This document shows positions 23,060 to 30,665 of a stretch of 64,000 bases of DNA, piece after piece. The position numbers and the translations under genes were made by a program. The stretch is taken from the sequence record CP113993.1; one strand, written 5' to 3'. This stretch comes from a plasmid. Numbering within the stretch: the stretch's first letter is position 1; each line of letters opens with the position of its first letter. Under the pieces are notes generated by a model. The model saw only the letters and a program-made list of their open reading frames with translations. It was not told the origin of the DNA and ran no database searches.

Positions 23060-23365
23060 TTAACGTTTCCGGGACTGAGAGGCGATTTTCCGGGCGGTGT
23101 GGAGTACCCGCAGGATACGTACATGCTCTTTTTCGGCTACATAGACGATGATGAACGGGAAGTGAGGCACCACAAGCTTACGCTGATTCTCCAGCCTCCC
23201 GGCCTTTACCCCAGCCAGCGGGTTTTCCTCCAGGATACCCGTCATGCCCGCCAGACGGTCGTCTGCGGCTATGGCAACCTCATCCCCGGCTTCCCGGTTC
23301 AGGTACAGGAAGATGTCTTCCCTGTCCCTCTGTGCGCGCTTTTCCCATTCAACCCTGACCGTCAC
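23060..23365 (-). CDS. parE: ParE/RelE-family toxin
   Basis: 101 aa; typical ParE features (DIFLYL...VKAGRLENQRKLVVPHFPFIIVYVAEKEHVRILRVLH); 4-bp overlap with upstream antitoxin. Confidence 0.7.
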   Translation of the reverse strand: MTVRVEWEKRAQRDREDIFLYLNREAGDEVAIAADDRLAGMTGILEENPLAGVKAGRLENQRKLVVPHFPFIIVYVAEKEHVRILRVLHTARKIASQSRKR

Positions 23366-23652
23366 AGCCTGCCCCGCATGGCCTGTTGTTTCAGCGTGTT
23401 CATCCTGTTTTCCATTTCATCGTGGCCGATATACTCGCCTTCACCGGCATCATAGCGGCTGAATGCCTGAGCTATCTGCTCTTCCAGCCAGTCTTCATGT
23501 ACGCTGCTCTGATAGCGGCGTTCTTCTTCTGCCAGCTCTTCGGCACGCTGGCGCATCAGCTCTGTCAGGCTCACCTGCTGACGCTCTGCTGCCTGCATGG
23601 CCAGTCGTTTGGTTTCTTCAGCTATCCGGAAGTGGATCGTACTGCTCATCAT
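23362..23652 (-). CDS. parD: ParD-like RHH antitoxin
   Basis: start at internal Met with GGAGGG RBS; MSSTIHFRIAEETKRLAMQAAERQQVSLTELMRQRA is RHH-like. Confidence 0.6.
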   Translation of the reverse strand: MMSSTIHFRIAEETKRLAMQAAERQQVSLTELMRQRAEELAEEERRYQSSVHEDWLEEQIAQAFSRYDAGEGEYIGHDEMENRMNTLKQQAMRGRL

Positions 23653-24372
23653 TCCCTCCACATGTGGTGTCGTTTGTGTTGTCATTATGAACGGTATATC
23701 CCGTTATGTCATCCAGGGTTTCCCGTTCTGCCGGATGTGTGCTGGCGTGAACCGCCTGAAGCGCCCGGACCGACACCTGCGTATAGATCTGCGTGGACTC
23801 CACGCTGGCATGACCCCGCATCGCCTGTATCCACCGCAGATCTGCACCATTCTCCAGCATCTGTGTCGCCATCGCGTGCCGGAACAGGTGGCAGCTCCCG
23901 TGCCCAACCAGGCCGGAGGCTTTCATATAGTGGCTGACGATGTTGGTGATGCCGTTCGGCCCCACACCCCCTCCACGACGTCCAGCGCCACGAACAGCGC
24001 CTTACAGTGCGGATTAACCAGCAACTGCGGTCTTAGCTGATGCAGATAATGCTGTACCCACCACAGCGCACGCTCACCCACCGGCACCACCCGGTCCTGT
24101 TTCCCCTTTCCCTGTACGATAGTCAGGATACGACGGTTCGCATCCACGCTGAACACGTCAAGACCCGCCGCCTCACTCCTGCGTACGCCCGTTGACCACA
24201 GCAGCTCCATCAGCACCCGGTCACGAATACCCGCAGGCGTGGTCAGGTCCGGCAGTGCCAGTACCTGCTCCACTTCATCCACGCTAAGGATATACCGTGG
24301 CAGGCACTTCTCCAGCCTCGGCAGCTCAAGGTCTGCCGCCGGGTTGGCCAGTATCAGGTTCTGTCGGGTCAT
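23618..24372 (-). pseudogene. tyrosine site-specific recombinase (plasmid ResD/Rsd/XerD-like resolvase) split by a frameshift
   Basis: ORF 23923-24372 carries the N-terminal/core-binding part (GIRDRVLMELLWSTGVRRSEAAGL); ORF 23618-23965 carries catalytic HxxR...Y box (GSCHLFRHAMATQMLENGADLRWIQAMRGHASVESTQIYTQV). Confidence 0.6.
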
Positions 24373-24594
24373 CCAGTGGAGCCAGACCTGAAGCGGCTGT
24401 AAGGCCGTACGCTGGGTCCGGGTGGTCAGCGGGGCACCATTACGTTTACGGTACTGGTACAGATGCCGCTGGTGATGCCTCTATACCGGAATCTATTGCA
24501 GTCCCCATGTGAACATCCGGTGAAGTCATCTTCACAGGAGTTTTCAGTCAGTTAGCATTACCGACATCCATTCACCGACTTACCGGAGGAACCG

Positions 24595-24924
24595 ATGTCA
24601 AAACACCGATGGTCCATTGAACAGAAAAGGCAGCACGTTGCCGCCTGGCGCACCAGCGGCCTTACACGCCAGCAATACTGTGAACTCAACGATATCCCCT
24701 TCAAATCACTTCGCGAATGGCCGAAGGATGTCGCAAAAGCTGAACGTCGGGCTAATGACCCCACCATTCTTCCCGTTCAGATTGCGCCAACACTGCAGGC
24801 TGATACTCCACCGCCCGTCACAAACGAGCCGGTTACACTCTTCATCCCCGGCGGGATACGGATGTGCTGTCATCCTTCACAACTGACTGATGTCTTCAGG
24901 GCGCTCAAATATGCTGACGCCTGA
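24595..24924 (+). CDS. IS66-family accessory protein TnpA (orf1)-like
   Basis: HRWSIEQKRQHVAAWRTSGLTRQQYCELNDIPFKSLREW resembles IS66 orf1. Confidence 0.45.
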   Translation: MSKHRWSIEQKRQHVAAWRTSGLTRQQYCELNDIPFKSLREWPKDVAKAERRANDPTILPVQIAPTLQADTPPPVTNEPVTLFIPGGIRMCCHPSQLTDVFRALKYADA

Positions 24925-25055
24925 TAATGTTTTCCTCACTGTTAAACCTGTCGATATGCGGCGCGGCATCGATACGCTGACACAGTATAGACAGGATGAA
25001 CTCAGGTCGACGTGGCATGAGGGCGCCGCCTTCGTCTTTGTCAACAATCTATGGT
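24890..25055 (+). pseudogene. truncated IS66-family TnpB (orf2) N-terminus
   Basis: LTVKPVDMRRGIDTLTQYRQDELRSTWHEGAAFVFVNN parallels IS66 TnpB (ITDMRNGFNGLA...GHLFIFRGRRGD); homology ends where the IS110-family element begins. Confidence 0.5.
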
Positions 25056-25059
25056 CACC

Positions 25060-26430
25060 CCCATTTTTGCAATACTGATTTTTGATTAATGGTGGGCTTG
25101 CTTCAATCTATCCGGCGTCTGTATGGGCAAGAATGCCCGCGCCACGATGAGTTCCGCGCCTGATGCACCTGAAAAAGCCCTCGGCTTCAGTGAGCCATTT
25201 GTTGTCTAAGGTTTCTCATCAGGCCGATATGCCGTTCATGTCATCAATAATCAGTCTTCGCAAAACCAGATGGGTAACTACTGTTTAACTACTTAATAAT
25301 CAATCTGTTGATTCAGCGCGACATATATCAGGCCTGATATGCATTGTGATTCGTCGTGATTGCCCATGCTATTCGCGCCAGTTTGTTTGCCAGAGCGCAG
25401 GCAACCACATTCGAATGCTTCTTGCTGAGTTGCTCTCTGACCCATTCGGCCAGTCTGCCCTGCTGATGTTCCAGTCGCATCATGAACGAGCGGGCACACT
25501 GAACCAGTAAACGGCGGAGGTTTTTGTCGCCCCGTTTGCTGATACCCAGCAGAGTCGATTTACCTCCTGTACTGTATTGCCGGGGGACAAGCCCTGTGGA
25601 AGCAGCAAAAAGCCCTGTGGAAGCAGCAAAATCCCTGCTGCATGAAAATTGTTTGCCATCACCGAGCTGTGATGAAAGCAGACTGGCCGTAATCGGCCCA
25701 ACACCGGGTATTGTCATGATGCGTTGAGTTGCATCATCAGTTTTGATTGACTGGTTTAATTCTGATTCCAGTTCTGTTATTTGCTCAACAAGGTAAAGAT
25801 AGTGAGCGTGTAATTTCATCAGCAAACGGCTCAGATATTCAGGTATTTCGTGTTCCACGAGCACCAGGGGCAGCCGCTTAATGACAGTATCGCCTACTGG
25901 CAGACTGATACCAAATTCCAGCAAAAAACCGTTGATCTGGTTGGTCGTTTTCACCTTGTCTCTGATAAGTGATTCTCTGGCCCGATGCAGCGCTCGCATC
26001 GCCTGCTGAACTTCGGTTCTGGGCTGGACAAACCACATTGATGGTCGCGATGCGGCTTCGCATATTGCCTCAGCGTCGACAAAATCATTTTTATTACTTT
26101 TGACGAACGGACGCACGAATTGCGAAGAGATAAGTTTTGCTTCATGACCGATATCACTGATACGCCGTGCCATAAAATGCGCACCGGCACAGGCTTCCAT
26201 AACAACAACAGTGGACGGACATGTCGCCAGAAACTGCATTAGATTAGTGCGCGTGAATTTCTTACGCTGAAGCGCCTTTCCGGACTTGTCCTGACAGTGA
26301 AGATGAAAAGAGTGTTTACCGAGAGCGATACCAATAAGCGCAACGTTTTCCATGATGGCCTCTCCTGAAAGAAAAACATCCTGCCAGCATACCGCTCACA
26401 GAGTGGGGGTGACCATCTCATTAAGCCCTG
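25060..26430 (-). mobile_element. IS110-family insertion sequence (ends approximate; no inverted repeats expected)
   Basis: 341-aa DEDD transposase; bounded by end of IS66 tnpB homology (~25055) and start of P4-type integrase homology (~26430); ~270-bp non-coding flank 3' of tnp and ~80 bp 5' of tnp. Confidence 0.65.
25328..26353 (-). CDS. IS110-family DEDD transposase/recombinase
   Basis: N-terminal RuvC-like MENVALIGIALGKHSFHLHCQD, C-terminal Tnp domain (MTIPGVGPITASLL...VPRQYSTGGKSTLLGISKRGDKNLRRLLV); expected catalytic Asp of IGIDxGK is Ala here; in-frame 21-bp tandem duplication (FAASTGL x2). Confidence 0.8.
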   Translation of the reverse strand: MENVALIGIALGKHSFHLHCQDKSGKALQRKKFTRTNLMQFLATCPSTVVVMEACAGAHFMARRISDIGHEAKLISSQFVRPFVKSNKNDFVDAEAICEAASRPSMWFVQPRTEVQQAMRALHRARESLIRDKVKTTNQINGFLLEFGISLPVGDTVIKRLPLVLVEHEIPEYLSRLLMKLHAHYLYLVEQITELESELNQSIKTDDATQRIMTIPGVGPITASLLSSQLGDGKQFSCSRDFAASTGLFAASTGLVPRQYSTGGKSTLLGISKRGDKNLRRLLVQCARSFMMRLEHQQGRLAEWVREQLSKKHSNVVACALANKLARIAWAITTNHNAYQA

Positions 26431-26712
26431 AGGGTAATGGGGTATGACATAACCAAGGACGTCTGTAGTCATGGATTCCGGGCTATGGCATGCAGTGCGT
26501 TGATTGAATCAGGTTTGTGGTCCCGCGATGCTGTTGAAAGGCAGATGAGTCATCAGGAGCGTAACGGTGTACGAGCAGCTTATATCCATAAAGCCGAACA
26601 CTTGGAAGAGCGGCGACTGATGCTACAGTGGTGGGCGGATTTTCTGGATGCAAACTCGAAAGAAAGTACCAGCCCCTTTGAGTATGCAAAGATTAACAAT
26701 CCATTAAAATAG
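26425..26712 (+). pseudogene. 3' fragment (last ~90 codons) of a P4-type phage/satellite integrase
   Basis: HGFRAMACSALIESGLWSRDAVERQMSHQERNGVRAAYIHKAEHLEERRLMLQWWADFLD is the conserved tyrosine-recombinase C-terminus (HxxR...Y) of P4/CP4-57-like integrases; N-terminus replaced by IS110-family element. Confidence 0.65.
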
Positions 26713-27035
26713 TAAGCACTCCGGGCAGATTGTCCGGAGTGCTTTGAATGACGATTTTCTTTGGTAATGATGAAGAAGGTTGATGGTAAGGCAAATTATC
26801 CCCGCCCCTCATTAATACTCATGTAGTCAAGTCATTTATAGCTGGCATCACGGACTTCTGATCTCCCCTAGTTGCAGGTAACGACTTCAGTCCGCTGAAA
26901 GCGAAAAGCGGAAGTTCGGGAGGGTTGTGATCTACTTTTAACCTTTGTAATTTAGAAGTATTCTTTTAAGATTAATCCACTTCCCATCGTCATCCTTTCG
27001 GTGCCCGTGAAAAGCTTTTTTAAGGTTACTGCCTC

Positions 27036-29345
27036 ATGGAGTTATGGATATTTATAATAGCTATTTATTTGATTTATATTCTTTTTTTCAAAAAGAAGAA
27101 ACCTAAGTCCGCGGGCTCTTATACTTCCGCTCCTGTGAAAGCACCACCTAAAGAATGGCTTGCTAACAACAAAAAAAATCAGGCGGTAATGCACAACGAT
27201 GACAGCGAAGATGACAATCTGGCTACGTTTACACTAAGTGGCGGACGGAATGTCGAATACAGCATAACAGCCACTCAACGCCAGAATCTCTCAAAAAATA
27301 CCGGTGCTTTGGCTCGCTGGATTTTACCGGGAGAGGTGATCACAGTCGGTGGGGTAGAGGTTACCGGTGCCCACTTCTATCTTGGACAGCGTATGAAACC
27401 TGCCGGGCATAACTCAGGTGGTTATTATGATGATAGTAGCGAGGCATCGCTAATTGACGACACGCTTAAGATATACCCCACACCTTACATTTACGAAGAT
27501 AGTTCATTAGGGTATTGGCCCAGTTTTTCCTCACTTTCACCTGAAGCACGTGGTGCGTACCTGAGTTGGCTTGCCAGCGACAGATGTGACACTTCTTGCC
27601 CAATTGGTTACGTTTTTATTTATCTGTATGGTCTGGAAAGACGGGCGCTTGTTGACAGCAGGGACAACAATATATCTGACGATGAGTTCTATTCTCTTTT
27701 CAAAGAGATCTGCCGTCTCAGATCGGTTTTCAATGAAAACCGATCTTTCCGGAACTACTCGTCCCAGCTACTTGAAGCGATGTCCATTCTTCGCCCGAAC
27801 GAAAATCTTGCAGCAGCTCTCGTCAATGATTCGGAGTTCAGCAATAGAATGCAATTCAGGCTAATCCTGGCAAAGACAGTTGAGGCAGGAGCCCCGGTGC
27901 CAGCTGATCTGGCTCTGACGTGGGTGACAAACCATACTGAATACTCATTGCGAACCCCTGCCCGCCGTTGCGCGAAAGAATTTGCTGCACTTTTTAAACG
28001 GCGTTACACCCTTAAATACGGTGAAGGGATGGTAGTGAAGCCGAATAAAGCGCGTCTGCGTTTAGATTACACACCTGCAAGTCCCAGTTTGCGAGGTATT
28101 CGGCTTCCTGTTCCCGACTTGCCTGATCCAAGTGCATTGAAAGGCCCTGTTCAGCAGCTTATGACCCTTGCCGATATATGCACAGATGAACTAGATGCTT
28201 ACAGTCGTTACCTTGGTAGAAAAGGCACTTCAGCAAATGATACCGCTGCAATTTTGTTGCTGCCTTCAGAAATCGTTAACGAAAGCGCAGAAAAAATATT
28301 AAGTGCATTCAAACGCTGGGCTGATGACGCGATCCTCAGTAAGGGTGGAGTAGTTTCAGTTGCTGACTACTGGTCACATATGAATGCTACCTGTCCGGCG
28401 AAGATCAATAAAAAAGAGGCCGACTTGATGCAGGCCTTTGCACAGAAAATGGGGTACTGTCTGGCTCCTGACCCCTATTACCACCACGTAAAGGCAGATG
28501 TCGATGGTGTTCTTGTTTTATTCCCTGCAGGAGAAGGTGGACGCTTCTCACCTTCTCCTGAATTTATCACAGCTGTATTGACGCTCCGATTAGGTGCGGT
28601 AGTCGCCTTGATTGACAATTCTCTCGATCAAGCCGAACAGAAAGTGCTCGAGAATGCCATCAACAACAATGCCGGCTTCAGCGATGATGAAAAGCGCTCT
28701 CTACACGCATATTTAACGTGGCAGCTTCATACCCCGGCGAACATGACGGGAATGAAGAGCCGGATTGAATTACTTGATACTGCGGAAAAATCAGCTGTTG
28801 GTAAGGTTATCGTTAGTGTTGCTTGCTCTGATGGCAGAATTACGCCTGCCGAAATCAAACAGCTTGAGAAGATTTATACAAGCCTGGGGCTGGATCCCTC
28901 ATCCGTATCAAGCAATATCCACCAGCATTCCGCAACTGAAACTGCTCTCGTTTCATCTGTACCAGCTAATCAGTCGACGGCAGGGTTTACACTGGATGCC
29001 AACGTACTTGCCCGCCACGAATCTGCCACTGATGATGTTCGTAAATTACTGAACTCGATTTTCACTGAAGAAGAACCAGAACAACCAGAAAGCACTCCAG
29101 CCTCATTAACCGGGGAAGGGGGCCTTGACCCCGCTCATAGCCAACTTTATCGCAGGTTGCTGGAGAAAGAACAATGGTCCAGAAAAGAGGCGACAGAGTT
29201 ATGCAGTAACTGGAACTTGATGCTCGGCGGTGCGCTTGAGGTGATCAATGATTGGTCCTATGCGGTGGTTGATGCACCAGTGCTGGAAGATACTGATGAT
29301 CATATTTGGGTTGACCTGGAAATAGCCAAAGAATTAGAGGGTTAG
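27036..29345 (+). CDS. TerB-N/TerB-C domain protein with N-terminal TM helix; Shango SngA-like
   Basis: 769 aa; N-terminal hydrophobic helix; C-terminal TerB-like motif VSVACSDGRITPAEIKQLEKIYTSLGL; first of three co-directional genes with 3-bp gap to next. Confidence 0.55.
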   Translation: MELWIFIIAIYLIYILFFKKKKPKSAGSYTSAPVKAPPKEWLANNKKNQAVMHNDDSEDDNLATFTLSGGRNVEYSITATQRQNLSKNTGALARWILPGEVITVGGVEVTGAHFYLGQRMKPAGHNSGGYYDDSSEASLIDDTLKIYPTPYIYEDSSLGYWPSFSSLSPEARGAYLSWLASDRCDTSCPIGYVFIYLYGLERRALVDSRDNNISDDEFYSLFKEICRLRSVFNENRSFRNYSSQLLEAMSILRPNENLAAALVNDSEFSNRMQFRLILAKTVEAGAPVPADLALTWVTNHTEYSLRTPARRCAKEFAALFKRRYTLKYGEGMVVKPNKARLRLDYTPASPSLRGIRLPVPDLPDPSALKGPVQQLMTLADICTDELDAYSRYLGRKGTSANDTAAILLLPSEIVNESAEKILSAFKRWADDAILSKGGVVSVADYWSHMNATCPAKINKKEADLMQAFAQKMGYCLAPDPYYHHVKADVDGVLVLFPAGEGGRFSPSPEFITAVLTLRLGAVVALIDNSLDQAEQKVLENAINNNAGFSDDEKRSLHAYLTWQLHTPANMTGMKSRIELLDTAEKSAVGKVIVSVACSDGRITPAEIKQLEKIYTSLGLDPSSVSSNIHQHSATETALVSSVPANQSTAGFTLDANVLARHESATDDVRKLLNSIFTEEEPEQPESTPASLTGEGGLDPAHSQLYRRLLEKEQWSRKEATELCSNWNLMLGGALEVINDWSYAVVDAPVLEDTDDHIWVDLEIAKELEG

Positions 29346-29348
29346 TGA

Positions 29349-30665
29349 ATGTCTGTAACACGTATAAGAGTGAAAGAGCGCGACGCTATTATTCAGTCAC
29401 TTAAGTCAGGAGTAACGCCAAGGATAGGGATTCAGCATATCCAGGTTGGCCGCGTGAATGAGATAACCGCCCTCCATCAGGATATTGAACGGATTGCTGA
29501 TGGAGGGGCGAGCTTCAGACTTATCATTGGTGAGTACGGTTCCGGGAAAACGTTCTTTTTAAGTGTTGTGCGGTCTATTGCGTTAGAGAAGAAGTTGGTT
29601 GCGGTCAGTGCAGACCTTTCTCCCGACAGACGTATTCACTCATCGGGAGGTCATGCTCGTAATCTCTACTCAGAGCTTATGAAAAATATGTCCACCAGAA
29701 ACAAACCAGATGGCAATGCGTTACTTAGCGTTGTGGAAAGGTTCGTTACTGAGGCAAGGAAGGAAGCTGATGCGAACGGCTCCCAAGTCTCATCCGTTAT
29801 TCATAAACGCCTTGCTGCTTTGTCAAATATGGTGGGCGGATATGACTTTGCGAAGGTCATTGACGCATTCTGGCGCGGGCACGAGCAGGATAACGAAACC
29901 TTAAAATCCAATGCCATTCGCTGGTTGCGGGGCGAATACACCACCAAAACTGATGCCCGTAATGATCTCGATGTCCGAACTATTATCTCAGACGCCTCAT
30001 TCTATGATTCTTTGAAGTTGATTAGCCTTTTTGTCCGTCAGGCAGGCTATGCCGGACTTTTAGTTAGCCTCGACGAGATGGTGAACCTCTTTAAGTTGAA
30101 TAATACGCAAGCGAGAACAGCCAACTACGAACAGATCTTGCGGATCCTGAATGACTGCCTGCAAGGCTCCGCCGAAAATATTGGTTTTATCCTCGGGGGG
30201 ACGCCAGAGTTTCTTTTCGATCCACGTAAGGGGCTCTACAGCTATGAGGCGCTCCAGTCGCGTCTGGCAGAAAACCGATTCGCACAGAAAGCAGGCGTGA
30301 TTGACTACTCGTCTCCCACGCTGCATCTTGCCAGCCTCACTCCTGAGGAACTGTATATTTTACTGAAAAATCTTCGTCATGTTTATGCTGGTGGAGATCC
30401 CGCGAATTATCTGGTGCCAGATGATGCTCTGACCGGGTTTCTGCATCACTGCAGCAAAACCATCGGAGATGCTTACTTTCGTACTCCCCGCAATACCATA
30501 AAAGGTTTTCTGGATATGCTAGCTGTGCTGGAGCAAAACAGAATGATGAACTGGCAAGCGCTCATCGAGGGAGTGGCGATTGAAGAAGACAAGCCCAGCG
30601 ATATGGATGACACCACTGTGGAGGAAAGCGATGACGACGACGGCCTGGCGAATTTCAGACTATGA
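29349..30665 (+). CDS. P-loop ATPase (DUF2791/BrxD-like); Shango SngB-like
   Basis: 438 aa; Walker A GEYGSGKT, Walker B-like LLVSLDEM; 4-bp overlap with downstream helicase gene. Confidence 0.6.
   Translation: MSVTRIRVKERDAIIQSLKSGVTPRIGIQHIQVGRVNEITALHQDIERIADGGASFRLIIGEYGSGKTFFLSVVRSIALEKKLVAVSADLSPDRRIHSSGGHARNLYSELMKNMSTRNKPDGNALLSVVERFVTEARKEADANGSQVSSVIHKRLAALSNMVGGYDFAKVIDAFWRGHEQDNETLKSNAIRWLRGEYTTKTDARNDLDVRTIISDASFYDSLKLISLFVRQAGYAGLLVSLDEMVNLFKLNNTQARTANYEQILRILNDCLQGSAENIGFILGGTPEFLFDPRKGLYSYEALQSRLAENRFAQKAGVIDYSSPTLHLASLTPEELYILLKNLRHVYAGGDPANYLVPDDALTGFLHHCSKTIGDAYFRTPRNTIKGFLDMLAVLEQNRMMNWQALIEGVAIEEDKPSDMDDTTVEESDDDDGLANFRL

What the first reader, a model, noticed from the sequence alone, without database searches (positions are those of the whole stretch)
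25060..26430. IS110-family element: catalytic Asp to Ala change, in-frame 21-bp duplication, and unusual distribution of non-coding ends
The recombinase N-terminus reads IGIALGK. IS110-family RuvC-like DEDD enzymes have IGIDxxK there, and a single A-to-C change (GAT to GCT) would remove the first catalytic Asp. The gene also carries a tandem 21-bp duplication (FAASTGL x2). IS110-family elements encode a structured bridge/guide RNA in one non-coding end. Here only ~80 bp separate the start codon from P4-integrase homology, whereas ~270 bp lie 3' of the gene. So either the bridge-RNA locus is 3' (IS1111-like layout) or the 5' end was truncated. This may be a decaying copy, or a variant with a repositioned guide RNA.
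Basis: partly seen in the sequence, partly recalled or inferred. Interest (0 to 1): 0.6.

Follow-up and report, generated by a model that had tools for sequence, protein, structure and literature searches.

The report
Dead copy of an IS1111-type insertion sequence
This is an ordinary RNA-guided insertion sequence of the IS4321/IS5075 clade on a Salmonella pESI-type megaplasmid; its transposase gene is dead and decaying, while its ends and its guide-RNA region, which lies in the normal place for this group, are still intact.

Summary
The recombinase (window 25328-26353, minus strand, 341 aa) reads IGIALGK where relatives read IGIDLGK, because of a single GAT>GCT change. It carries an exact 21-bp tandem duplication (25589-25630). 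It has 70 bp of non-coding DNA 5' of the gene and 280 bp 3'.

The layout is not unusual. About 55 relatives (65-100% aa identity, including IS4321 of R751) have 66-75 bp 5' and 251-297 bp 3'. They share the same ends: TAATGAG + sub-terminal inverted repeat on the left, repeat + AGA on the right. This sets the element at 25048-26423.

The 3' region holds a covariation-supported guide RNA (seekRNA / bridge RNA). Two of its variable segments change together with the flanking target across the family. In the window it differs from an active Salmonella copy at only 2 nt.

The Ala replaces the residue that aligns with IS621 D11, which is essential for recombination. On the window lineage 9 of 10 codon changes are non-synonymous and six hit invariant residues; across the family the ratio is 25:97. 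D10A came before the duplication.

Verdict: a non-autonomous fossil copy of a known kind. It may still be mobilisable in trans. It also sits on a deletion junction between an IS66 tnpB and a P4-type integrase gene. Low interest.

The parts
25048..26423 (-). Whole insertion sequence: 1376 bp, or 1355 bp without the duplication
   Evidence: Homology with about 55 family members stops exactly outside TAATGAG...CCATAGA, and the flanks diverge beyond it. This fits the IS1111-family rule of a 7-bp left and 3-bp right extension (PMC11187229).
26354..26423 (-). Left end: 7-bp extension TAATGAG (26417-26423), sub-terminal inverted repeat ATGGTCACCCCCA (26404-26416), then RBS AGGAGA. 70 bp non-coding.
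   Evidence: Differs by 1 nt from active copies L008-L015.
25328..26353 (-). Transposase/recombinase gene, 341 aa: open reading frame but degenerate
   Evidence: It has 9 non-synonymous and 2 synonymous codon differences from the intact copy.
26324..26326 (-). Codon 10, GCT (Ala) in place of GAT (Asp): first residue of the DEDD catalytic tetrad
   Evidence: hhalign aligns family D10/E53/D90/D93 to IS621 D11/E60/D102/D105. Mutation of D11 abolishes IS621 recombination (PMC11208158).
25589..25630 (-). Exact tandem 21-bp duplication (FAASTGL x2, aa 242-255), in frame, ending 5-6 residues before the nucleophile loop
   Evidence: The unit is bounded by imperfect direct repeats CAGGGATT / CAGGGCTT 21 bp apart, which suggests slippage (read output).
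25562..25576 (-). YSTGG loop, aligned with IS621 Y239-E240-S241-G242 (the nucleophile loop); sequence intact
   Evidence: S254, T255 and G256 are invariant in alignment A3, and nearly so among 106 homologues.
25048..25327 (-). 3' non-coding region (280 bp), ending in the right sub-terminal repeat (25051-25063) plus AGA (25048-25050)
25096..25275 (-). Conserved guide-RNA (seekRNA / bridge-RNA) scaffold
   Evidence: Alignment A4 of 42 relatives. The consensus structure is 96% paired, against 33-43% when partners are slid, and 13 pairs have compensatory changes.
25158..25224 (-). Target-binding module: stem (25216-25224 with 25158-25166), inner CCU/AGG helix, central hairpin GGCUC..GAAGCC, and two guide segments in the internal loop
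   Evidence: Six of the 9 pairs of this stem show compensatory changes.
25198..25208 (-). Guide segment 1, TAGACAACAAA: reads as the bottom strand of the right-hand target flank, so it would pair with the top strand
   Evidence: 11/11 match at the chromosomal site of L013 and 7 contiguous matches at the window's flank. The segment changes with the flank across the family (for example AAAGGTTAAC, GATAAAAAAA, GAAACAAAA) and in IS4321 (AAAACGGAA against flank TTCCGTTTT).
25172..25180 (-). Guide segment 2, GGGCTTTTT: reads as the top strand of the target across the insertion point (GGGCT|TT..)
   Evidence: it covaries with the flank in nearly every member (GGGCCTT, GGGTCTTTTT, GGGAGTTTTT, GTGGCTTTTTA, GCCGTTTTTT, TCACTTTTTT ...).
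25105..25157 (-). Second, family-invariant module: CUCAUC ... GC hairpin ... GGAUAGAUU. Inferred donor-binding loop.
   Evidence: CTCAT matches the complement of the left end and ATAGAT matches the right end. The hairpin's 4 pairs all show compensatory changes. The donor-binding role is inference, because the ends never vary.
26424..26712 (+). Flank: 3' fragment of a P4-type integrase gene, cut exactly at the IS
   Evidence: An intact homologue (L097) reads ...AATAA|AGCCCTGAGGG, which is GGGCT|TTATTT, a target for this IS, at the same position.
24890..25047 (+). Flank: 5' fragment of IS66-family tnpB (its tnpA lies at 24595-24924), cut exactly at the IS
   Evidence: An intact homologue (L096) reads CCAATAA|ATCCCG, which is GGGAT|TTATTGG, at the same position.

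Best explanation
Window 25048-26423 (minus strand) is a defective, non-autonomous copy of an IS1111-group insertion sequence (IS110 family) from the IS4321/IS5075/ISSfl8 clade. It is fixed on a Salmonella pESI-type megaplasmid.

How active members work (established for the group): they excise as a circle. Joining the right end to the left end builds a promoter. In this element the junction would read TTGCAA-17 bp-GATAAT. That promoter drives the transposase gene and the downstream non-coding region. The non-coding region yields a roughly 80-150-nt guide RNA. Two loop segments of that RNA pair with the two strands of a specific target, here GGGCT|TT(G/A)T.... The DEDD/Ser recombinase then inserts the circle without a target duplication.

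What is left in this copy: both ends, the flanking half-targets and the guide-RNA region are intact. The recombinase has lost the first catalytic Asp (D10A). Later it gained a 7-residue in-frame duplication just before the nucleophile loop, plus eight further amino-acid changes. It can therefore no longer catalyse excision or insertion and is drifting neutrally. In principle an intact relative could move it in trans (inferred).
For: Family membership and layout:
- Domain architecture and NCBIfam match.
- The same ends, 66-75 bp 5' and 251-297 bp 3' non-coding DNA, in about 55 relatives and in IS4321.
- The published IS1111 layout places the seekRNA downstream of the transposase gene (PMC11187229).

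Guide RNA:
- Two segments of the non-coding region covary with the flanks across the family.
- They occur in the published order, with the top-strand-pairing segment 5' of the bottom-strand-pairing segment.
- The structure is supported by compensatory changes.
- The window's non-coding region differs from the active copy at 2 nt, neither in a stem.

Dead enzyme:
- D10 aligns with IS621 D11.
- Mutation of D11 abolishes IS621 recombination.
- 115 of 120 homologues keep Asp at this position.

Decay:
- All 9 non-synonymous changes are derived on the window lineage, against 1 synonymous change.
- The family ratio is 25 non-synonymous to 97 synonymous (Fisher p = 1.7e-5).
- The window pattern is compatible with neutrality (binomial p = 0.47).
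- Six of the nine changes hit columns that are invariant in alignment A3.
- Sister variants carry further private lesions.

Order of events: P0002 (loci L003-L007) is the same insertion with the same flanks. It has D10A but not the duplication.

Active relative: P0005 is identical in at least 3 different genomic contexts.

Promoters: none is found in the integrated element. The circle junction would create TTGCAA-17-GATAAT.
Against: - No activity or transcription data exist for this copy.
- The reading frame is still open after about 1% divergence. That is not improbable under neutrality, but it leaves room for a retained non-catalytic role.
- The essential role of the first Asp was shown for IS621, not for an IS1111-group enzyme.
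- The single-sequence fold of the non-coding region is no more stable than shuffled sequence (z = 0), so the structure rests on covariation alone.
- Rfam has no matching family.
Confidence: 0.88

Rival explanations
1. The element is still an autonomous, active IS. On this reading Ala10 and the 7-residue insertion are tolerated in this clade.
For: The ORF is open, the ends and guide region are intact, and the remaining catalytic residues E53, D90, D93 and YSTGG are present.
Against: - The residue aligned with D10 is essential in IS621.
- Among 120 homologues, Asp is replaced only in copies that carry other lesions.
- The 341-aa version occurs at one place per record, always in the same context, in 103 plasmids. 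The intact 334-aa version is found in several contexts.
- The substitution pattern is neutral.
Confidence: 0.03
2. The dead recombinase and its intact guide RNA have been exapted. The pair might act as an RNA-guided DNA-binding factor or as a dominant-negative subunit that blocks related incoming IS.
For: - The frame is open and the guide scaffold is intact.
- The same GAT>GCT change arose independently in an E. coli copy.
- Exaptation of transposon-encoded RNA-guided proteins is known for Cas12f/TnpB-like proteins (title of PMC12259090, seen in the listing; not read).
Against: - Non-synonymous changes outnumber synonymous ones 9:1, and six hit invariant residues outside the active site.
- Sister copies carry different extra lesions, including a 25-aa deletion in P0013.
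- The sister copy L007 has 4 changes in conserved guide columns.
- No promoter is present in the integrated state.
- The recurrence of D10A can be explained by survivorship: copies that cannot excise stay where they are (inference).
Confidence: 0.05
3. The 5' end was truncated when the integrase gene was disrupted, and an upstream bridge RNA was lost.
For: Only 70 bp lie upstream of the start codon, and integrase homology abuts the element.
Against: The left end is complete and collinear with all intact relatives, which also have 66-75 bp upstream. The guide RNA is located 3' of the gene.
Confidence: 0.01

Closest known systems
IS4321 / IS5075 (IS1111 group of the IS110 family; Partridge & Hall 2003, as cited in PMC11187229)
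   Same: - 334-aa DEDD/Ser transposase.
- Identical left end TAATGAG plus sub-terminal repeat, and right-end repeat plus AGA.
- About 260-280 bp of downstream non-coding DNA with the same conserved RNA scaffold.
- Guide segment complementary to the flank.
   Different: - Only 66% aa identity to the window protein, or 69.5% to the intact Salmonella copy.
- The guides are programmed for the Tn21-type inverted repeat (..GCTTTATT|TTCCGTTTTC) rather than GGGCT|TTGTTG.
- The window copy is catalytically dead and carries the duplication.
ISSfl8 (NCBI name for P0094) and unnamed E. coli / Salmonella 334-aa relatives (P0005, P0030)
   Same: Same clade and layout. Identity to the window protein is 85% aa for ISSfl8, 88% for the E. 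coli copies and 95% for the intact Salmonella copy P0005.
   Different: These have Asp10, no duplication, and occur in several genomic contexts. The guide-2 segment differs by 1-2 nt and matches their own flanks.
ISEc11, ISKpn4, ISPa11 seekRNA systems (Siddiquee et al. 2024, PMC11187229)
   Same: - Non-coding region downstream of the transposase gene gives a transposase-bound RNA.
- The top-strand match lies 5' of the bottom-strand match, and the two matches overlap at the insertion point.
- A promoter is made only at the circle junction.
- Both target flanks are needed for excision.
   Different: The targets differ and the transposases are more distant. Those elements were tested experimentally; nothing here was.
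IS621 / ISCro4 bridge recombinases (PDB 8wt6, 9t56; PMC11208158, PMC11208160)
   Same: RuvC-like DEDD domain, coiled coil and Tnp domain. hhalign probability 98%, 29% identity. The RNA has two loops: a variable target loop and a constant donor loop.
   Different: In IS621 the bridge RNA is encoded 5' of the gene in the left end, and there are no sub-terminal inverted repeats. The core here is not CT.

Membership tests
IS110 family, IS1111 group (IS4321/IS5075 clade) | Transposase with an N-terminal DEDD RuvC-like domain (PF01548) and a C-terminal Transposase_20 domain (PF02371) | tested here: met
   (E = 2.9e-15 and 5.3e-20). NF033542 scores 315 bits against a cut-off of 140.
IS110 family, IS1111 group (IS4321/IS5075 clade) | Complete DEDD catalytic tetrad | tested here: not met
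   A10 replaces D10, which aligns with IS621 D11. E53, D90 and D93 are present. So the copy is a member by descent but not a functional one.
IS110 family, IS1111 group (IS4321/IS5075 clade) | Conserved Ser-Gly nucleophile loop in the Tnp domain | tested here: inconclusive
   The YSTGG motif is present and aligns with IS621 YESG. A 7-aa duplication ends 5-6 residues upstream, and its structural effect was not tested.
IS110 family, IS1111 group (IS4321/IS5075 clade) | Sub-terminal inverted repeats with a 7-bp left and a 3-bp right terminal extension | tested here: met
   TAATGAG + ATGGTCACCCCCA ... TGGGGGTGACCAT + AGA. The flanks diverge exactly outside these in about 55 relatives.
IS110 family, IS1111 group (IS4321/IS5075 clade) | Long non-coding region downstream of the transposase gene that encodes a seekRNA with two target-matching segments, the top-strand match 5' of the bottom-strand match | tested here: met
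   The region is 280 bp. The guide segments covary with the flanks. The structure is supported by covariation. The RNA itself was not observed.
IS110 family, IS1111 group (IS4321/IS5075 clade) | Site- and orientation-specific insertion without a target-site duplication | tested here: met
   The flanks are GGGCT and TTGTTG, with no direct repeat. Both halves match the guides.
IS110 family, IS1111 group (IS4321/IS5075 clade) | Promoter assembled at the circle junction | tested here: met
   At sequence level only. Right end joined to left end gives TTGCAA-17 bp-GATAAT. No promoter is found in the integrated copy.
IS110 family, IS1111 group (IS4321/IS5075 clade) | Circle formation and transposition | not testable with these tools
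   Requires PCR or in vivo assays.
IS110-type layout (IS621, ISEc21): bridge RNA 5' of the gene | Structured non-coding RNA of about 150-200 nt in the left end, upstream of the recombinase gene | tested here: not met
   The left end has only 70 bp of non-coding DNA, made up of the terminal repeat and the RBS. Rfam gives no hit.

The most novel reading that the evidence does not exclude
The catalytically dead recombinase and its still-intact guide RNA may be retained on pESI as an RNA-guided, non-cutting DNA-binding module. It could act as a dominant-negative subunit that limits transposition of related IS, or as a binder of GGGCTTTTT-type terminator-like sites. On this reading, the independent recurrence of the same D10A change in an E. 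coli copy would reflect selection for such dead variants.
Probability: 0.03. Interest if true: 0.6.

Novelty: already known. Interest (0 to 1): 0.15.

Why it matters
It matters little in itself. This is a fossil IS copy, annotated as "IS110 family transposase" in more than 100 deposited pESI plasmids.

It has three modest uses:
- It gives a natural, ordered series of inactivating lesions in a bridge/seekRNA recombinase: D10A first, then the in-frame duplication, then further missense changes.
- The family comparison gives a clear guide-to-target code for the IS4321 clade, which could help predict the targets of unannotated members.
- The element marks a deletion junction in pESI, which is useful for reconstructing plasmid history.

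Tried and rejected
- Rfam scan of 24000-27500 at E <= 1 found nothing. Rfam appears to have no model that detects this RNA.
- phmmer of the whole protein against PDB aligned only residues 46-333 with IS621/ISCro4. The N-terminal 155 aa alone gave only chance hits. The catalytic Asp was instead mapped by profile alignment to the IS621 gene fetched from a plasmid.
- The single-sequence RNA fold of the non-coding region has z = 0 against shuffles. It is uninformative, so alignment covariation was used instead.
- A search for an uninterrupted "empty site", using the two flanks joined together, found no record covering both halves. A simple insertion into a contiguous site is therefore rejected.
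- Partridge & Hall 2003 (PMC219399) is not in the paper library. IS4321 was read directly from R751 instead.
- My first guess at the ends (GGGCTTAATGAG ... ATAGATT) was rejected. The outer 5 and 2 bases vary with the target in relatives, and only TAATGAG/AGA gives a junction promoter.
- Assembly artefact as the source of the duplication is rejected.
- I did not build a covariance model or predict the protein structure, because neither would change the verdict.

Full report
**What is in the sequence.** The region holds one long ORF on the minus strand (25328..26353, 341 aa) that starts MENVALIGIALGK. It matches PF01548 (DEDD_Tnp_IS110), PF02371 (Transposase_20) and NCBIfam NF033542, "IS110 family RNA-guided transposase". 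To its left lie an IS66-family tnpA and the first ~50 codons of tnpB. To its right lies the last ~90 codons of a P4-type tyrosine integrase. The 1401-bp stretch including flanks matches 103 plasmid records at >=99% identity, once per record. The 30 listed are all 100% identical Salmonella enterica plasmids of 168-323 kb. From memory, this size and source fit the pESI megaplasmid of S. Infantis.

**The three observations hold.**
- Relatives have GAT (Asp) where the window has GCT (Ala) at 26324-26326.
- TRF reports a perfect two-copy, 21-bp array at 25589-25631. It encodes FAASTGL twice and is absent from every 334-aa relative.
- There are 70 bp of non-coding DNA upstream of the gene and 280 bp downstream.

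**True ends.** I fetched an intact Salmonella relative (P0005, 334 aa, IGIDLGK) in at least three different genomic contexts. I also fetched E. coli copies and 80 family loci from one-genome-per-species contigs, at 65-93% aa identity. In about 55 of these the element begins TAATGAG + ATGGTC(A/C/T)CCCC and ends with the inverted copy + AGA. Sequence diverges immediately outside. This is the IS1111-family signature described by Partridge & Hall and restated by Siddiquee et al. 2024: sub-terminal repeats with a 7-bp left and a 3-bp right extension (PMC11187229). The element is therefore window 25048-26423. Joining its right end to its left end gives TTGCAA-17 bp-GATAAT, the junction promoter expected for the circular intermediate. 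The integrated copy has no sigma-70-like site, against 2.1 expected by chance. IS4321 of plasmid R751 has the same ends and a 334-aa transposase that is 66% identical, so this is the IS4321/IS5075 clade.

**The layout is canonical.** All relatives have 66-75 bp upstream and 251-297 bp downstream of the gene. Siddiquee et al. showed that in IS1111-type elements the non-coding region lies downstream of the transposase gene. There it yields a transposase-bound seekRNA of about 80-150 nt, whose top-strand match lies 5' of the bottom-strand match. Nothing is truncated or repositioned here.

**The guide RNA.** The alignment of 42 distinct downstream regions (A4) shows a strongly conserved scaffold interrupted by two hypervariable blocks.
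- Block 2 (window 25172-25180, GGGCTTTTT) has the same sequence as the target's top strand across the insertion point in nearly every member. It changes with the flank: GGGCCTT, GGGTCTTTTT, GGGAGTTTTT, GTGGCTTTTTA, GCCGTTTTTT, TCACTTTTTT and others.
- Block 1 (25198-25208, TAGACAACAAA) has the same sequence as the bottom strand of the right flank. It matches 11/11 at the chromosomal site of L013 and 7 contiguous bases at the window's own flank. Other members read AAAGGTTAAC, GATAAAAAAA or GAAACAAAA. IS4321 reads AAAACGGAA against its flank TTCCGTTTT.

The blocks sit in an internal loop, either side of a small hairpin. The loop is closed by a stem in which 6 of 9 pairs show compensatory changes. 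A second hairpin has 4 of 4 covarying pairs. Overall 96% of cells are paired, against 33-43% when partners are slid. A second, invariant module (CUCAUC...hairpin...GGAUAGAUU) matches the invariant element ends. I infer it is the donor-binding loop, but with no variation this cannot be tested. The window's downstream region differs from the active copy at two positions. One is A>T in guide 2, where T is the family consensus. The other is a hairpin-loop base. The RNA module is therefore intact. Rfam has no matching family, and a single-sequence fold is uninformative.

**The enzyme is dead and drifting.** Profile alignment to IS621, whose gene I fetched from a plasmid, gave 98% probability. It puts family D10/E53/D90/D93 on IS621 D11/E60/D102/D105, and YSTGG on Y-E-S241-G242. 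Hiraizumi et al. report that D11 coordinates the catalytic Mg2+ and that mutation of D11 abolishes recombination (PMC11208158).

Against the intact copy, the window gene has 9 non-synonymous and 2 synonymous codon differences. With E. coli as outgroup, all 9 non-synonymous changes and one synonymous change are derived on the window lineage. The intact Salmonella copy differs from the E. coli copy by 25 non-synonymous and 97 synonymous changes. The contrast is significant (Fisher p = 1.7e-5), and 9:1 fits the neutral expectation of 3.3:1 (binomial p = 0.47). Six of the nine changes (D10A, P77S, R107W, V125A, H141N, S162P) hit columns that are invariant among 11 family members down to 77% identity.

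**Order of events.** P0002 (loci L003-L007) is the same insertion with identical flanks. It has D10A and six of the other changes but lacks the duplication. So D10A came first. Other variants carry further private lesions. P0001 has the duplication plus P46L and G292C. P0013 has the duplication plus an internal deletion. The duplication is bounded by CAGGGATT and CAGGGCTT, 21 bp apart, which suggests replication slippage. It ends 5-6 residues before the nucleophile loop.

**Genomic setting.** No uninterrupted "empty site" exists in the plasmid collection. An intact integrase homologue reads GGGCT|TTATTT (element orientation) exactly where the window's integrase fragment meets the IS. An intact IS66 tnpB homologue reads GGGAT|TTATTGG exactly where the tnpB fragment meets it. 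Each flank is therefore half of a separate, plausible target site. The most economical reading is inference: either two same-orientation insertions followed by recombination between the copies, or recombination between one IS end and a second target. Either would delete the rest of IS66 and the 5' part of the integrase gene.

**Verdict.** This is an ordinary IS1111-type element with the standard 3' guide RNA. It is a decaying, non-autonomous copy and not a new architectural variant. Exaptation of the dead protein and RNA cannot be strictly excluded, but the substitution pattern argues against it.

Noticed in passing
window 24890-25047 and 26424-26712: The IS sits on a deletion junction. Its two flanks are truncated, unrelated genes (IS66 tnpB and a P4-type integrase). 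In intact homologues of each gene there is a target-like site (GGGAT|TTATTGG and GGGCT|TTATTT) exactly at the break. This suggests two insertions followed by recombination, or recombination between one IS end and a second target.
   Followed up: partly
L101:601-1599 (E. coli, P0092): An E. coli-type copy carries the same GAT>GCT D10A change independently. It also has S15F, P220L and a 6-bp in-frame deletion: 3 non-synonymous to 1 synonymous change against the STEC299 copy. One possible reason (inference) is that copies unable to excise persist as fossils.
   Followed up: partly
L101:~580-600 and ~1880-1900: That E. coli copy is flanked by a 19-bp direct repeat, TTAAATGAAAGTGCATAGA, which ends in CATAGA like the IS right end. 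This is unexpected for a family that makes no target duplication, and I have no explanation for it.
   Followed up: no
L008-L095 insertion sites: Across the clade, 40 of 46 unique sites have a T-rich right flank starting TT. At least 11 have a GC-rich hairpin of 6 bp or more abutting the insertion point. Many members therefore insert between the stem and the T-tract of terminator-like hairpins.
   Followed up: partly
window 25182-25197 (minus strand): The guide RNA's own central hairpin plus guide 2 (UGGCUCACUGAAGCCG AGGGCUUUUU) scores as an intrinsic-terminator-like site. It resembles the hairpin-plus-T-run targets of the family.
   Followed up: no
window 25605-25615: The junction of the 21-bp duplication creates AGGGCTTTTT, a 10-nt match to guide segment 2 of the element's own RNA. 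This is probably coincidence, because guide 1 does not match the adjacent sequence.
   Followed up: partly
L002 (E. coli plasmid pTW10828_114.6k), locus 1788-2792: This is another decayed copy, with two internal stop codons. It is annotated as a pseudogene, "IS110 family RNA-guided transposase". Its guide 2 (GGGTCTTTTT) still matches its flank.
   Followed up: partly
L027, L032, L039 (Xenorhabdus / Photorhabdus): Three species share an atypical left end (ATACAAG instead of TAATGAG) and the same left flank (..aaacc[a/c]gattaaag), with no guide match. This may be a rearranged or hybrid left end. In L041 a 77-bp inverted copy of a left end lies downstream of the gene.
   Followed up: no
window 23060-24372: A RelE/ParE-like toxin ORF (23060-23365) sits next to an upstream antitoxin-like ORF (23362-23685). 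A tyrosine recombinase is split into two overlapping ORFs (23618-23965 and 23923-24372), apparently by a frameshift.
   Followed up: no
window 27036-30665: A 769-aa ORF is followed by a 438-aa ORF. Their counterparts in the sister plasmid loci are annotated TerB_N/TerB_C and BrxC/BrxD-like ATPase. This may be a defence-type gene pair next to the IS.
   Followed up: no
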